From: Escherichia coli | Lineage (GTDB): Bacteria > Pseudomonadota > Gammaproteobacteria > Enterobacterales > Enterobacteriaceae | Length of the DNA: 64,000 nucleotides | Assembly: GCF_002854065.1 (NCBI RefSeq) | Contig: NZ_CP024147.1 | Reading direction: 5' to 3' (one strand) | Shown here: positions 39,070 to 45,000 of the stretch, one piece after another | Position numbering within the stretch: the stretch's first letter is position 1 | How the letters are laid out: each line of letters starts with the position of its first letter | Position numbers: made by a program

Positions 39070-42000
39070 TTACACCTTTATTGGCGGTTTCCTCGCGGTG
39101 AGCTGGACTGACACTGTACAGGCCAGCCTGATGATTTTTGCCCTGATCCTGACGCCGGTTATCGTCATTATCAGTGTCGGTGGCTTTGGTGACTCGCTGG
39201 AAGTGATCAAACAAAAGAGCATCGAAAACGTGGATATGCTCAAAGGGCTGAACTTTGTCGCCATTATCTCGCTGATGGGGTGGGGGCTGGGTTACTTCGG
39301 GCAACCGCACATCCTGGCGCGTTTTATGGCGGCGGATTCTCACCACAGCATCGTCCATGCGCGTCGTATCAGTATGACCTGGATGATCCTCTGCCTGGCA
39401 GGGGCGGTGGCTGTCGGCTTCTTTGGTATCGCTTACTTTAACGAGCACCCGGCGGTAGCAGGTGCGGTAAACCAGAACGCTGAACGCGTGTTTATCGAAC
39501 TGGCGCAAATTCTGTTTAACCCGTGGATTGCCGGGATTCTGCTGTCGGCAATTCTGGCGGCGGTAATGTCAACCTTAAGTTGCCAGCTGCTGGTGTGCTC
39601 CAGTGCGATTACCGAAGATTTATACAAAGCGTTTCTGCGTAAACATGCCAGCCAGAAAGAGCTGGTGTGGGTAGGGCGTGTGATGGTGCTGGTGGTGGCG
39701 CTGGTGGCCATTGCGCTGGCGGCAAACCCGGAAAACCGCGTGCTGGGCTTAGTGAGCTACGCGTGGGCAGGCTTTGGCGCGGCGTTTGGTCCGGTGGTGC
39801 TATTCTCGGTGATGTGGTCACGCATGACGCGCAACGGTGCGCTGGCGGGGATGATCATCGGGGCGCTGACGGTTATCGTCTGGAAACAGTTCGGCTGGCT
39901 GGGACTGTACGAAATTATTCCGGGCTTTATCTTTGGCAGTATTGGGATTGTAGTGTTTAGTTTGCTGGGTAAAGCGCCGTCAGCGGCGATGCAAAAACGC
40001 TTTGCCGAGGCCGATGCGCACTATCATTCGGCTCCGCCGTCACGGTTGCAGGAAGGCTAAGCTGAAGAGTAATTATTTATCTTTTGCTTTTTAACCCGAA
40101 TGTTCCCTGCCATGCGGTATAAGTTGCCTGGCAGGGAGTGTTCGGGGGCAATTGCTATTTGCCCACCCGGCACAGATGAACAAAATTGCCGCTATCGGTA
40201 CCTTCAGCTTATGTCCTGCGGCTGGTTGGTTGGGCGAGATAGAATGTATTCGACATATTCCCGCTGTTTTTTAACCACGCCAGTTTTCTCGCACCTTGCT
40301 TGGTCACTCCGCTCGATTTCAGGTAGGATCTGGCAGTAGACCACTGGAAGCCGCGTTTTTTACTCCACTTTTCGGCTCCCCCTGCGCTGTTACGCTCCTC
40401 CTGGGTCATATTCGCCCATTGTACGATGTCTCCGAAGGTGAACGTGACCCATTTCTGCGGCCCTGTCAGCTTCAACTCACCCAGGGCGGTAAGCCCGTCG
40501 TTCTTCAGGTAATTCCTGGCAGTAGTTGGCGCGAGGTTTCTTTCCTTACACCACTTTTCTAAATAACCAACCGGTTTTCGCACATGCTTGTTTAAGGCTG
40601 CCCACTGGCGGATATGTTCAAGGGTGAATTTGGCATATTCATGCGGCCTGTTTACCTTTACCTGTCCCGCGTAGTTCAGGCCGTGATCGGTCAGGTAATT
40701 TCTGGCATTTTTGATATTAAAATGATTGCGCGTACACCATCCTGGAACTCCCTGTAGAGCGTTTCGCGCCTGCTGGTCCATAGCCGCCCATTTTCGCATG
40801 TCGTCTACAGTCAATTTAACATATTGCTGTGGCTCGTCCTCGATGGTCTGCCTGGTGTTGTTTATGTCGTCATTTGCAGTATTTGGTGGGATGTTGCTTG
40901 TATTACACGATTGCTGTAATTCCACATCGTTACGCCACGCCAGCGGAGACATATTTCCAAATTCTCGCATGCCATTGTTGGTAAAGTGTGTTTCTTCTCT
41001 TCCGTATTGCTGGGCCGGGGAGTAGCGAGCTGCTTCATGCACCCTGTTTTGATTTTCATCCGTGAGTATTGGCCGTACGGACCAGAGATCAAAGGTTCCA
41101 TATTGACTGCGTGACATCAGTGTTGTGACAATGGAGTGAAACAGCTCAAGAGCAATATTTGTACTGGTGCACACACCGCTCTTGCTGACTGCAATTTTCA
41201 CGAGATTGCCCGTGTTGTCATGCTCTTGCGTCTTCGTGAAGGTGATGGTGAAACCGGCAACATCGAAGGTGAACGGTTCAGGAAGTTGCAGATCATTTGC
41301 ACTTACCACCGGTTGGAACTGATGTCGATGTAGTTCGGTTGTCATCGCAACAGCCAGCAAGTGAACCTCTTCAGGAACCAGTGGAGTAACAGCCATGCCC
41401 GTGCTGTAGTCCGCATCCCTTTTGATATAATTATTCATCTGCACCAGAAGCGTCAAAGTTTCCAGACAACTACTCGGGAGTTGTTGCGGTGGAATATAGG
41501 TTGCTGCGCTCGTATTGAGGTTGGATATTGGTCTCATGTCATGCTCTCCGTATCCTTACAGGGTTAATGATTCGTATTAAGTCGTAGCCATCCGCATGGC
41601 TCCGGGCGATTCAGTCGGCGCACCAGGATGTACACTTCGGATGCGTTCTTGATGTAGTAAACAATCCGCTCATTCTGGTGTTAATGGAAACACCCGTAAA
41701 AAGCAGGAGGAATGCCAGTTATTGGCGAATTTACAATGCTGCCATCGGGGTGAGTTTCATGAAGATTATTATTTTTTTTACGCCTTGTATCATCGCGTTA
41801 AATAATAATTTCTTCCTGTGTTTCATAAAGTATATAGTTACAATTACTCGTGAATTTTATCGATAACTCGACGTTAGCCTTCAGCCAGAGAAAAATTAAC
41901 TCGCAAATTTTTTAATTTATCGTTAGGGGAATGGGTAAATTATATTCTCGACCCTAATTACAGGGTTCATCTGAAAACAGTGGCGTCTCATCTTATTACT

Positions 42001-45000
42001 TCTCTTTCTGTATTCATGTTAGTGGGTTTGTGATAATGTCATAGTAGAAAAATCGTGAGAAAAAACATTTATTAATTATCATCTTATTGATTTTTATGTG
42101 TTGGTGTTTGTGATGATTGATTTTCACGAGAATCTCTTACTTTGATTAAGATTTTTATTTTTTCTTATATTTAACGTTATTCAATGCGCGTCCTGCTACG
42201 TTTTATCGTGATTTAGAATTGTATGTAGCATTAGCCATAAAATGATATCACTGGGAATATAATAAGGGGAATTATAATTTTGGGGGATAATTAGGCACTA
42301 TCAAAAATCGCTCATTCCAGACTTAAATACACGTTTTCTCCTGTTTAGGTTGTGGGCAAAAAATTCGATGAGGAGATGAGGTATAATTTCATTCACAACC
42401 TTATCACTATCTATTAATAAGCAAAAAACAACGTTCTTTTGTGATACGACTAACTGAAAATTCAACCCTTCGGGGCACGCTGCAGCGAGTTTGTGGGCAC
42501 TAACATTCGTACAAGCTTCATCTGCCGGGCGAAACGTCAGCTAAATACCTTAAAATAATCGCTTTTTTCTCCGGATTTGATCTCCTCATTTTTACATTCC
42601 AACATCATTTTATAAACATTCCGCTTGTATTTTTCTTTAGCGTAATGATAATCGCTATCACTGCGATTTACTTTTCTTTGCATAGATTGACTCAGAAAAA
42701 CGTTTAAGGGTGGGTGGCATGTTTGTTCCGTTTCTCATTATGTTGCGCGAAGGACTTGAAGCCGCGCTGATTGTCAGTTTGATTGCCAGCTATCTTAAGC
42801 GTACCCAGCGAGGCCGATGGATTGGTGTGATGTGGATTGGCGTGTTGCTTGCCGCTGCGTTGTGCCTGGGCTTGGGTATCTTCATTAACGAAACCACCGG
42901 CGAATTTCCGCAAAAAGAGCAGGAACTGTTTGAAGGTATCGTGGCGGTGATCGCCGTGGTGATCCTTACCTGGATGGTTTTCTGGATGCGCAAAGTGTCG
43001 CGCAACGTCAAAGTGCAACTGGAACAGGCAGTCGATAGCGCATTGCAGCGTGGAAATCATCATGGCTGGGCGCTGGTGATGATGGTCTTTTTTGCCGTTG
43101 CAAGGGAAGGCCTGGAGTCGGTCTTTTTCCTGCTGGCGGCATTTCAACAAGATGTCGGGATCTGGCCGCCTCTGGGTGCAATGCTCGGTCTTGCTACTGC
43201 CGTGGTGCTCGGCTTCCTGCTCTACTGGGGCGGTATTCGCCTCAATCTTGGTGCATTTTTTAAATGGACCAGCCTGTTTATTCTCTTCGTCGCCGCAGGA
43301 CTGGCTGCAGGTGCCATTCGCGCATTTCATGAAGCCGGATTGTGGAACCACTTTCAGGAAATCGCCTTTGATATGAGCGAGGTGCTCTCAACTCACTCGC
43401 TGTTTGGCACGTTGATGGAAGGGATTTTTGGTTATCAGGAAGCACCGAGCGTCAGCGAAGTCGCCGTCTGGTTTATTTATCTCATCCCGGCGCTGGTGGC
43501 ATTTGCTCTGCCACCACGCGCAGGGGCGACAGCGTCTCGCTCCGCGTAGCAAATACGACGCAAACTCTTGCTTAGTTACAACATACTTTAAAGGGATAGT
43601 CTCGTCATGACCATTAACTTCCGCCGTAACGCATTGCAGTTGAGCGTGGCTGCGCTGTTCTCTTCTGCTTTTATGGCTAACGCCGCTGATGTGCCGCAGG
43701 TCAAAGTGACCGTGACGGATAAGCAGTGCGAACCGATGACCATTACGGTTAACGCCGGGAAAACACAGTTCATTATTCAGAACCACAGCCAGAAGGCGCT
43801 GGAGTGGGAGATCCTCAAAGGCGTGATGGTGGTGGAAGAGCGGGAAAATATCGCCCCTGGTTTTAGCCAGAAAATGACGGCGAATTTACAGCCTGGCGAA
43901 TACGATATGACCTGCGGTCTGCTGACTAACCCGAAAGGGAAGTTGATTGTCAAAGGTGAGGCAACGGCGGATGCGGCGCAAAGTGATGCGCTGTTAAGTC
44001 TTGGTGGTGCAATTACTGCATATAAAGCGTATGTCATGGCGGAAACCACACAGCTGGTGACCGACACCAAAGCCTTTACCGACGCGATTAAAGCTGGCGA
44101 TATCGAAAAAGCGAAAGCACTGTATGCGCCGACGCGCCAGCACTATGAGCGCATTGAACCGATTGCTGAACTGTTCTCCGATCTGGATGGCAGCATTGAC
44201 GCCCGTGAAGATGATTACGAGCAAAAAGCCGCTGATCCAAAATTCACCGGTTTCCACCGTCTGGAAAAAGCATTGTTTGGCGACAACACCACCAAAGGGA
44301 TGGATAAGTATGCCGACCAGCTTTATACCGATGTGGTCGATTTGCAAAAACGCATCAGTGAACTGGCTTTCCCACCTTCAAAAGTGGTCGGCGGTGCAGC
44401 CGGACTGATTGAGGAAGTGGCAGCCAGCAAAATTAGCGGTGAAGAAGATCGCTACAGCCACACCGATCTGTGGGATTTCCAGGCTAACGTTGAAGGCTCG
44501 CAGAAAATTGTCGATCTGCTGCGTCCACAACTGCAAAAAGCCAACCCGGAACTGCTGGCAAAAGTCGATGCCAACTTTAAAAAGGTCGATACCATTCTGG
44601 CGAAATACCGTACTAAAGACGGTTTTGAAACCTACGACAAATTGACCGAGGCCGACCGGAACGCGCTGAAAGGGCCGATTACTGCGCTGGCGGAAGATCT
44701 GGCGCAACTTCGCGGTGTGCTGGGGCTGGATTAAGCGTTATGCAGTATGAAGATGAAAACGGCGTGAATGAACCGTCACGCCGACGTTTACTGAAAGGGA
44801 TTGGTGCGCTGGCGCTGGCGGGAAGTTGTCCGGTCGCTCATGCACAAAAAACGCAAAGTGCACCGGGCACGCTTTCACCGGATGCACGCAATGAGAAACA
44901 GCCGTTTTATGGTGAGCATCAGGCAGGGATCCTGACGCCACAACAGGCCGCAATGATGCTGGTGGCGTTTGATGTGCTTGCCAGCGATAAAACCGATCTT

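What the first reader, a model, noticed from the sequence alone, without database searches (positions are those of the whole stretch)
41538..42718. 1.2 kb AT-rich non-coding region with an embedded GC-rich, possibly structured segment
The divergent upstream region of the 442-aa gene and efeU is unusually long and very AT-rich (runs such as ttttttacgccttgtatc, tatttaacgttattc), typical of nucleoid-protein-silenced DNA. It contains no convincing ORF. Within it, 42463-42545 is a discrete GC-rich island containing a c(UUCG)g tetraloop hairpin (cccttcgggg, 42466-42475) and a gctgcagc palindrome, which could be a small RNA or 5'-UTR element on the + strand. A Fur-box-like site (42643-42661) sits about 60 bp upstream of efeU.
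Basis: inference. Interest (0 to 1): 0.4.

Follow-up and report, generated by a model that had tools for sequence, protein, structure and literature searches.

The report
Broken TRIP1/RRS repeat beside efeU
The GC-rich patch upstream of the E. coli iron-uptake gene efeU is not a small RNA of its own. It is one surviving arm of a known chromosomal repeat (TRIP1, also called RRS) that a 2.2-kb insertion carrying an orphan gene and its AT-rich upstream DNA has split in two.

Summary
The window is E. coli putA-putP-[442-aa orphan gene]-efeUOB. That includes the low-GC spacer, the lack of conserved ORFs, the 55% GC island at 42463-42545 with cccttcgggg and gctgcagc, and a Fur box about 58 bp before efeU.

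The island is not an independent plus-strand RNA. It folds no better than shuffled sequence, shows no compensatory changes among alleles, and has no Rfam match and no promoter or terminator signal.

Instead, 42467-42542 and 40096-40249 are the two collinear arms of the TRIP1b repeat. TRIP1b is the putP-proximal copy of the TRIP1/RRS family. Its central 43 nt are replaced by 2217 bp (40250-42466), made up of the orphan ORF plus its upstream DNA.

Intact TRIP1 cores have a strongly covarying fold (22 of 51 pairs compensatory). That fold resembles the Rfam TwoAYGGAY motif but scores below threshold. The two missing hairpins are exactly the ones that carry the GGA loops. The RRS G-quadruplex motif is also gone.

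This allele occurs in about 12% of complete E. coli genomes, including O157:H7. The last ~130 bp is the efeU promoter, conserved across Enterobacteriaceae. Verdict: a relic of a known repeat, of modest interest.

The parts
40096..40249 (-). Left arm of the split TRIP1b/RRS-like repeat. It corresponds to columns ~83-165 of the intact core plus the degenerate GC hairpin. It starts ~36 bp after the putP stop and is 53% GC.
   Evidence: nhmmer with the intact-allele spacer (L005) gives E 1.7e-11 for query 52-203. nhmmer with the multi-genus TRIP1 profile gives E 5e-9.
40209..41537 (-). 442-aa orphan ORF (homolog of ECs_1262). Its last 12 codons and stop codon (ILSRPTNQPQDI*) lie inside TRIP1-derived sequence.
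   Evidence: It is E. coli-only at >=85% identity. Distant relatives share a C-terminal repeat region. The AF2 model shows three tandem ~62-aa repeats at residues 240-430 and has no PDB fold match.
40250..42466 (.). 2217-bp segment that replaces the central 43 nt of TRIP1 (both GGA-loop hairpins). It is 43% GC and has no terminal repeats.
   Evidence: The two arms are collinear with query positions 52-203 and 247-322. No terminal direct or inverted repeats were found.
41538..41760 (-). Conserved, 48% GC stretch directly upstream of the orphan ORF. It is probably the ORF's leader or proximal promoter; a consensus-level minus-strand promoter match lies at 41793-41765.
   Evidence: Only 4-5 variable columns per 100 among six alleles, against 17-33 further upstream. 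Promoter match. The fold is not unusual, z = -0.42.
41761..42462 (.). AT-rich (30.9% GC), fast-evolving spacer with no conserved ORF.
   Evidence: It matches nothing in phages, and in plasmids only mislabelled E. coli chromosome pieces.
42467..42512 (-). It holds the 5' strands of outer helices 1-5 of the TRIP1 core and is 59% GC.
   Evidence: nhmmer E 9.5e-6 over the whole window. BLAST gives 82% identity over 39 nt to the K-12 and L005 alleles.
42513..42542 (.). Ancestral spacer sequence flanking TRIP1b, shared with the K-12 and L005 alleles (CCGGGCGAAACGTCAGCT versus CCGGGCAAAAAGTTAGAT).
42588..42718 (+). efeU promoter and leader region, conserved across Enterobacteriaceae.
   Evidence: BLAST hits to all 80 species loci are restricted to this stretch.
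42641..42659 (+). Fur box, matching the consensus at 15 of 19 positions.
42719..43549 (+). efeU (276 aa, intact).

Best explanation
The 1.18-kb spacer is a composite of four parts.

1. The last ~130 bp is the ancestral Fur-controlled efeU promoter.
2. The GC island (42467-42512, extending to 42542) is the distal arm of the TRIP1b repeat. TRIP1b is the putP-proximal member of the E. coli TRIP1/RRS repeat family. The other arm lies 2.2 kb away at 40096-40249, immediately after putP.
3. Between the arms, the 43 nt that form the two GGA-loop hairpins of an intact TRIP1 have been replaced by 2217 bp of foreign DNA. That DNA carries a 442-aa orphan gene reading leftwards, which borrows its last 12 codons and stop from the repeat. 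It also carries a conserved ~220-bp leader and ~700 bp of AT-rich, rapidly diverging upstream DNA.
4. The island therefore does nothing by itself. It is half of a long-range stem whose partner is now 2.2 kb away.

The copy has lost the hairpins, and the RRS G-quadruplex motif is not detectable in it. It is drifting in sequence. It can no longer act as a replication-gap element (RRS) or as a TwoAYGGAY-like RNA.

Shown here: the homology, the collinearity, the missing centre, the lack of local structure, and the allele distribution. Inferred: the direction of the event (insertion rather than deletion), loss of function, and the regulatory role or H-NS binding of the AT-rich DNA.
For: **Locus identity.** The region is the E. 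coli putP-efeU spacer, with annotation from O157:H7 and other genomes.

**Homology of the two arms.** The intact-allele spacer (L005) hits the window at exactly two collinear places, 40096-40249 (E 1.7e-11) and 42467-42542 (E 9.5e-6). Query positions 204-246 are missing and 2217 bp sit in their place.

**Identity of the repeat.**
- It is present in 5425 of 5426 E. coli genomes, at a median of 3 places per genome.
- The aqpZ-lysO copy in K-12 is TRIP1a.
- The literature places TRIP1b 41 bp downstream of putP (PMC10888264).
- TRIP1 is the same element as RRS (PMC11194060).

**Structure of intact cores.** Eight intact cores from five genera give a consensus fold with 95.3% of cells paired. 22 of 51 pairs show compensatory changes, against at most 2 in the slid controls.
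- The window's island maps to columns 1-37 and the left arm to columns 83-165.
- Columns 38-82, which include both hairpin loops, are absent.
- Only 19 of 27 surviving pairs are still complementary.

**No intact copy in the window.**
- The covariance model built from intact copies finds nothing in the window.
- The RRS G4 motif is absent at up to 3 mismatches.

**Local plus-strand fold.** z = -0.30 and no covariation.

**Allele counts in complete E. coli genomes.**
- Split allele: 643-644 of 5426.
- Intact TRIP1 at this locus: 945 of 5426.
- K-12 type, with an independent internal deletion.
- 219-bp type without TRIP1, which is also the state in E. albertii, E. whittamii and many other genera.
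Against: - The arms are only 74-82% identical to other E. coli TRIP1b alleles. The whole block 40061-42590 is a divergent haplotype. The history is therefore not a simple recent insertion into a K-12-like allele, and the donor lineage is unknown.
- No target-site duplication or terminal repeats mark an insertion mechanism.
- The right-arm match is short (76 nt, E ~1e-5). The multi-genus profile does not detect it, because that part varies between genera.
- Loss of function is inferred, not measured.
- The island is somewhat less variable among alleles (9 per 100) than the AT-rich spacer (17-33 per 100). That could mean residual constraint, or simply a different mutation or recombination history.
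- The covariation alignment has only 8 sequences from about 5 independent lineages, and the structure was derived from the same alignment.
Confidence: 0.82

Rival explanations
1. One reading: the GC island encodes an independent small RNA or a structured 5'-UTR element on the plus strand, upstream of efeU.
For: - It is a discrete GC-rich patch with a possible CCC(UUCG)GGG hairpin.
- It is less variable among six alleles than the neighbouring AT-rich DNA.
- It lies about 175-255 bp upstream of efeU on the same strand.
Against: - Fold z = -0.30.
- 0 compensatory pairs, and substitutions break the predicted pairs.
- The fourth G of the hairpin is G, A, T or deleted among alleles.
- No Rfam match and no promoter or terminator at the island.
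- It is absent from the 219-bp E. coli alleles and from 75 other species that keep efeUOB and its promoter.
- Its sequence is explained by homology to TRIP1, where it pairs with the other arm on the opposite strand.
Confidence: 0.04
2. The island keeps the 5' end, and perhaps the promoter, of a TRIP1-derived minus-strand transcript. That transcript now reads into the AT-rich DNA and contributes to, or interferes with, expression of the 442-aa gene. It would act as a co-opted long leader or as an antisense transcript to the efeU upstream region.
For: - The folded strand of TRIP1 cores is the window's minus strand: 10 G.U cells against 2 A.C cells in A1.
- The Rfam TwoAYGGAY orientation agrees.
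- The orphan gene is on the same strand, 0.9 kb downstream.
- The island is moderately conserved among alleles.
Against: - No evidence was found in the two TRIP1/RRS papers read that TRIP1 is transcribed at all.
- No consensus promoter lies next to the island on the minus strand.
- The intervening 700 bp is the most variable part of the locus.
- G.T tolerance would also fit a folded single-stranded DNA.
Confidence: 0.08
3. The window arrangement is ancestral. The 'intact' and K-12 alleles would then be deletion derivatives, so the orphan gene was lost rather than gained.
For: - The L005-type allele retains sequence homologous to the 3' end of the ORF.
- The K-12 allele shows that internal deletions happen at this repeat.
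Against: - The central 43 nt are contiguous and conserved in TRIP1 copies at other E. coli loci and in four other genera, where they form covarying hairpins. The contiguous form is therefore the original.
- The '3' end of the ORF' is simply TRIP1 sequence.
- No homolog of the ORF occurs at this locus in 80 other species.
Confidence: 0.05

Closest known systems
TRIP1 repeats (Rudd 1999; Li et al. 2024, PMC10888264), specifically TRIP1b downstream of putP
   Same: - Same locus: it starts ~36-41 bp after the putP stop.
- Same orientation.
- Sequence homology over both arms.
- Like the K-12 TRIP1b, it is a partial copy that has lost its centre.
   Different: - K-12 TRIP1b has an internal deletion of ~111-125 bp. 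Here only 43 nt are lost, and 2217 bp carrying an orphan gene are inserted.
- The arms are 74-82% identical to other alleles, against 84-94% among the described TRIP1 types, and GC has fallen to 53-59%.
- This split form is not among the five types described in that paper.
RRS, replication risk sequences (Pham et al. 2024, NAR, PMC11194060), equal to TRIP1a and TRIP1c
   Same: It belongs to the same repeat family. The strand carrying the RRS G-quadruplex motif is the strand I call sense, which is the window's minus strand.
   Different: - The G4 motif GGGGGTGCAGGGGGCGGCGG is absent at up to 3 mismatches.
- From the map position, the G-rich strand here would be the leading-strand template. This is inference, which report TRIP1b as always 'reverse'.
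- Gap formation could not be tested.
TwoAYGGAY RNA motif (Rfam RF01731; Weinberg et al. 2010), proposed to be a CsrA-binding RNA (Gardner & Eldai, PMC4333381)
   Same: - Intact TRIP1 cores have the same architecture. A long closing stem encloses two adjacent hairpins whose loops read CAUGGAUG or CAGGGAUG.
- Both are multi-copy in gamma-proteobacterial genomes; Psychromonas is in the original alignment.
   Different: - Intact copies score 30.6-31.9 bits, below the gathering score of 43.
- The window copy lacks both hairpins entirely and gives no hit.
- Neither TRIP1/RRS paper that I read mentions this resemblance.
Fur-repressed efeUOB promoter of E. coli
   Same: The Fur box matches the consensus at 15 of 19 positions, ~58 bp before the ATG, and is conserved in 81 promoters.
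   Different: Nothing unusual. K-12 has the same promoter but a frameshifted efeU.

Membership tests
TRIP1 / RRS repeat | Sequence homology to TRIP1 copies | tested here: met
   Two collinear nhmmer hits, E 1.7e-11 and 9.5e-6, against the intact TRIP1b-locus allele. A multi-genus profile hits the left arm at E 5e-9.
TRIP1 / RRS repeat | [quoted passage not shown] | tested here: met
   putP ends at 40060 and the left arm starts at 40096-40099. Published position is quoted.
TRIP1 / RRS repeat | Contiguous 222-273 bp GC-rich (62-65%) unit | tested here: not met
   The unit is split by 2217 bp and 43 nt of the centre are missing. The arms are 53% and 59% GC. The covariance model of intact cores finds no copy.
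TRIP1 / RRS repeat | G-quadruplex motif 5'-GGGGGTGCAGGGGGCGGCGG | tested here: not met
   No match with up to 3 mismatches anywhere in the window. The homologous stretch reads CCGGGTGGGCAAATAGCAATTG.
TRIP1 / RRS repeat | Triggers lagging-strand post-replication gaps | not testable with these tools
   Requires ssGap-seq or RecA ChIP in a strain carrying this allele.
TwoAYGGAY RNA (RF01731) | Two terminal loops containing AYGGAY | tested here: not met
   Both hairpins fall within the deleted columns 38-82. They are present in intact TRIP1 copies.
TwoAYGGAY RNA (RF01731) | Score at or above the Rfam gathering threshold (43 bits) | tested here: not met
   No hit in the window even at E <= 10. Intact relatives reach 30.6 bits (K-12 TRIP1a) and 31.9 bits (Citrobacter).
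TwoAYGGAY RNA (RF01731) | Long closing P1 stem | tested here: inconclusive
   Both strands of the stem survive but lie 2.2 kb apart, and 19 of 27 pairs are still complementary. Intact copies show compensatory changes in 12 of the 25 pairs of helices 1-5.
Independent bacterial sRNA or structured leader (generic) | Fold more stable than shuffles, covariation, and a promoter and/or terminator | tested here: not met
   z = -0.30 and +1.32. 0 compensatory pairs. No signals at the island.
Fur-regulated promoter | Match to the 19-bp Fur consensus in the promoter, conserved in orthologs | tested here: met
   15 of 19 positions match, it is unique in the window, and the core is at least 90% conserved in 81 sequences. 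Fur binding itself was not tested.

The most novel reading that the evidence does not exclude
TRIP1/RRS elements may not be only G-quadruplex 'replication risk' DNA. They may be members, or close cousins, of the TwoAYGGAY class. That class is a single-strand fold with a long covarying stem and two hairpins whose GGA loops are conserved across genera, and it is recognised by a sequence-specific partner. The partner could be CsrA if the element is transcribed, or a ssDNA-binding factor on the exposed template strand.

Because these elements provoke gaps, they may also be hot spots for structural change. The putP-efeU copy alone exists as intact, internally deleted (K-12) and insertion-split (this window, O157:H7) forms. 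The split captured an orphan gene that terminates inside the repeat.
Probability: 0.2. Interest if true: 0.6.

Novelty: new variant of a known kind. Interest (0 to 1): 0.3.

Why it matters
**For the finding as posed.** It removes a false sRNA candidate from the efeU upstream region. It also explains an odd GC island as repeat debris.

**Beyond that, there are three modest points of interest.**

1. About 12% of complete E. coli genomes, including O157:H7, carry a TRIP1/RRS copy destroyed by insertion of an E. coli-specific orphan gene. Such strains are a natural test of whether the putP copy contributes to RRS function.
2. The TRIP1/RRS core shows strong covariation and GGA-loop hairpins of the TwoAYGGAY type. 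This link is not made in the TRIP1 or RRS papers I read. It suggests that more than the G-quadruplex is under selection.
3. One locus shows four structural states of the same repeat. That is useful for studying how these elements are gained, broken and lost.

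Tried and rejected
- **Rfam, permissive mode, on 40000-43500.** Only two chance-level hits.
- **Covariance model R1 of intact TRIP1 cores on the window.** Searched whole and on each arm with filters off; nothing above noise. This is expected for separated half-stems.
- **Promoter and terminator scan.** Counts did not exceed shuffles, and nothing lies at the island.
- **Terminal repeats or target duplications at the insertion junctions.** None found.
- **The AT-rich DNA against plasmids and phages.** Only mislabelled E. 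coli chromosome pieces matched.
- **Coding relic hypothesis for the island.** I compared all reading frames of the window and K-12 versions by eye. No frame showed a synonymous-biased pattern, and I dropped the idea once the TRIP1 homology was clear.
- **Small ORFs in the spacer.** Most are broken in other alleles. The 48-aa ORF at 42537-42683 is intact only because it overlaps the conserved efeU promoter.
- **Fur consensus with up to 3 mismatches.** No hit; the real site has 4 mismatches.
- **Orphan protein.** Pfam gave only weak sub-threshold hits (PipB2_N, DUF1289), and PADLOC gave none. The word-based homolog search found E. coli only. Distant homologs are repeat proteins on short metagenomic contigs with no useful context. 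The AF2 model has mean pLDDT 53 and no significant PDB fold match.
- **Fold of the conserved leader 41525-41760, minus strand.** z = -0.42, not unusual.
- **Literature search on ECs1262.** Only one incidental mention, in a Panseq paper I did not open.

Full report
**Where we are.**
The window is Escherichia coli. The 1181-bp query matches 5417 of 5426 complete E. coli genomes, but only 643 carry it over at least 80% of its length. Those include O157:H7. The rest share only the last ~100-165 bp.

Annotated relatives show the order putA, putP, a 442-447-aa hypothetical protein on the opposite strand, then efeU-efeO-efeB-phoH. In Sakai the orphan gene is ECs_1262.

**Checking the observation.**
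- Composition is uneven.
  - 41538-41760 is 48% GC.
  - 41761-42462 is 30.9% GC.
  - The island 42463-42545 is 55.4% GC.
  - 42546-42718 is 34.1% GC.
  - The window mean is 50.1%.
- ORFs are at most 62 aa, and most are interrupted in other alleles.
- The Fur box is best placed at 42641-42659.
  - It matches the consensus at 15 of 19 positions.
  - It is the only site that good in 64 kb.
  - Its core is at least 90% conserved in 81 Enterobacteriaceae efeU promoters.
- The 'structured' impression fails.
  - The island folds no better than shuffled sequence, with z = -0.30 on the plus strand and +1.32 on the minus strand.
  - Rfam finds nothing.
  - There is no promoter or terminator signal at the island.
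  - The predicted plus-strand helices show no compensatory change in eight alleles, and substitutions break pairs.

**What the island is.**
The putP-efeU spacer has at least four allelic forms in E. coli:
- 2658 bp (this window);
- 653 bp (L005 type);
- 542 bp (K-12 type);
- 219 bp.

Aligning them showed that the island is homologous to a segment just after the putP terminator in the K-12 and L005 types. The L005 type also matches the window around the 3' end of the orphan ORF.

Searching the whole window with the L005 spacer gives exactly two collinear hits:
- 40096-40249, E 1.7e-11, query 52-203;
- 42467-42542, E 9.5e-6, query 247-322.

The 43 query bases between the two hits are replaced in the window by 2217 bp (40250-42466).

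**Identity of the repeat.**
The segment spanning both hits is a ~200-270-nt GC-rich element.
- It occurs in 5425 of 5426 E. coli genomes, at a median of three places per genome. One place is between aqpZ and lysO in K-12.
- It also occurs, in either orientation, in the putP-efeU spacer of Kluyvera, Citrobacter, Enterobacter and Leclercia.
- The literature identifies it as TRIP1 (Rudd 1999; Li et al. 2024, PMC10888264). TRIP1a lies at aqpZ-ybjE. TRIP1b lies 41 bp downstream of putP and is a partial copy with an internal deletion in K-12.
- TRIP1a and TRIP1c are the 'replication risk sequences' (RRS) of Pham et al. 2024 (PMC11194060). They carry a G-quadruplex and trigger post-replication gaps.

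**Structure of intact copies, and what the window has lost.**
Eight intact cores (three E. coli, five from other genera) align cleanly. They give a consensus fold of 51 pairs.
- 95.3% of cells are paired, and 22 pairs carry compensatory changes.
- Slid controls give at most 2, and no shuffle reaches the observed values.

The fold is a long outer stem enclosing two adjacent hairpins whose loops read CAUGGAUG or CAGGGAUG.

Rfam's TwoAYGGAY model aligns end to end with two copies. The K-12 TRIP1a copy scores 30.6 bits and a Citrobacter copy scores 31.9 bits. Both are below the gathering score of 43. This is a resemblance in architecture, not a demonstrated membership. TwoAYGGAY has been proposed as a CsrA-binding RNA (PMC4333381). 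Its gamma-proteobacterial members in the original alignment are multi-copy in Psychromonas.

G.U pairs outnumber A.C mismatches 10 to 2 on the TwoAYGGAY-sense strand. That strand also carries the RRS G4 motif. In the window it is the minus strand.

Mapping the window onto this alignment gives the following:
- The island covers columns 1-37, the 5' strands of outer helices 1-5.
- The left arm covers columns 83-165.
- Columns 38-82, with both GGA hairpin loops, are gone.
- Of 27 pairs whose two partners survive, 19 are still complementary.

In intact copies the C-run pairs with a G-run about 85 nt downstream, with covariation: CCCC/GGGG, CCCU/AGGG, GCCU/AGGC and UUCC/GGAA. The gctgcagc palindrome is GCTGAAGC, GCCGAGGC or GCCGACGT in other copies.

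A covariance model of intact cores finds no copy in the window. The G4 motif is absent.

**The inserted DNA.**
The 2217 bp hold three parts:
- the orphan ORF, whose last 12 codons and stop lie in TRIP1-derived sequence;
- a conserved 48% GC stretch of ~220 bp just upstream of its start, with 4-5 variable columns per 100;
- ~700 bp of AT-rich DNA that is the most variable part of the locus, with 17-33 variable columns per 100.

There are no terminal repeats and no phage or genuine plasmid matches. None of 80 other species has a homolog of the ORF at this locus.

The protein is E. coli-specific at high identity. Its C-terminal half is three tandem ~62-aa repeats, which also occur in large repeat proteins from metagenomes. 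No family or fold could be assigned.

**History.**
The 219-bp spacer without TRIP1 is the state in E. albertii, E. whittamii and three further Escherichia representative genomes. A spacer of similar length is also seen in many other genera. TRIP1 at this locus is therefore derived.

The central 43 nt are contiguous and covarying in copies elsewhere. The split form is thus most simply an insertion into a TRIP1b copy. K-12's form is an independent internal deletion.

The whole block 40061-42590 is a divergent haplotype, and its arms are only 74-82% identical to other alleles. The event is therefore old, or the block was imported from a diverged lineage. This is inference.

Among complete E. coli genomes, about 12% have the split form and 17% have an intact TRIP1 at this locus.

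**How it most likely works.**
- The last ~130 bp is the ordinary Fur-controlled efeU promoter, which is conserved across the family.
- The island is inert debris. It is half of a stem, without the hairpins or the G4.
- The conserved 220 bp is probably the leader and proximal promoter of the orphan gene. A consensus-level promoter match lies at 41793-41765, which is weak evidence.
- The AT-rich DNA is a plausible target for H-NS, going by what is generally known about AT-rich acquired DNA. That was not tested here.

**Verdict.**
The feature is an undescribed structural variant of a known repeat, and of modest interest.

The most interesting by-product concerns TRIP1/RRS in general. Its core has a strongly covarying, TwoAYGGAY-like fold with conserved GGA loops. 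The TRIP1 and RRS papers I read do not mention this.

Noticed in passing
L092 2554-2693 (K-12 aqpZ-lysO, TRIP1a = RRS-lysO); L054 170-337: Intact TRIP1/RRS cores align end to end with Rfam TwoAYGGAY (RF01731), a proposed CsrA-binding RNA. They score 30.6 and 31.9 bits against a gathering score of 43. The fold has 22 of 51 covarying pairs and conserved CAUGGAUG or CAGGGAUG loops. The RRS and TRIP1 papers I read do not mention this.
   Followed up: partly
window 40209-41537 (-): The 442-aa orphan (ECs_1262 family) is E. coli-only at >=85% identity. Residues ~240-430 are three tandem ~62-aa helical repeats, which also occur in large metagenomic repeat proteins, one of them with a SET domain. There is a weak sub-threshold PipB2_N hit in the N-terminal part and no PDB fold match. 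Its last 12 codons and stop come from the TRIP1 repeat.
   Followed up: partly
L052 3432-3657 (-) versus L054 147-371 (+); L084 3469-3702 (+); L068 1648-1874 (+); L074 2175-2399 (+): TRIP1-like elements sit in the putP-efeU spacer of several genera in both orientations and at different distances from efeU. Two Citrobacter species have opposite orientations. This suggests repeated insertion or inversion at this spacer.
   Followed up: no
window 46071-46134: A REP (BIME-type) element lies downstream of efeB. It matches the REP in the K-12 putP-efeU spacer (nhmmer E 0.002).
   Followed up: no
window 41731-41826 (-): A 31-aa ORF (MKHRKKLLFNAMIQGVKKIIIFMKLTPMAAL) sits at the boundary of the conserved leader and the AT-rich DNA. 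It is intact in 4 of the 6 alleles. O157:H7 has a frameshift in a T-run, and one allele has lost the ATG. Its changes are mostly non-synonymous, so it is probably not a gene.
   Followed up: partly
window 42537-42683 (-); L006 2798-3100: A minus-strand ORF overlaps the efeU promoter and Fur box. It is intact in all alleles, and PGAP annotates its K-12-type counterpart as a 100-aa hypothetical protein in some genomes. Its conservation is explained by the promoter underneath.
   Followed up: partly
L084 8459-8652, L074 8510-8704, L052 8430-8623, L054 5123-5316, L068 8383-8576 (all -): There are strong Rfam Ysr251 (Yersinia antisense sRNA 251) matches of 124-149 bits about 4.4 kb downstream of the efeU start in other genera. 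The equivalent place in the window was not examined.
   Followed up: no
window 42495-42501: Within the island, this window's allele has three private substitutions. It reads GTGGGCACTAACA where the five other split alleles read GTCGCCACCAACA (one has GTCACCACCAACA), which is closer to K-12. This is consistent with unconstrained drift.
   Followed up: yes
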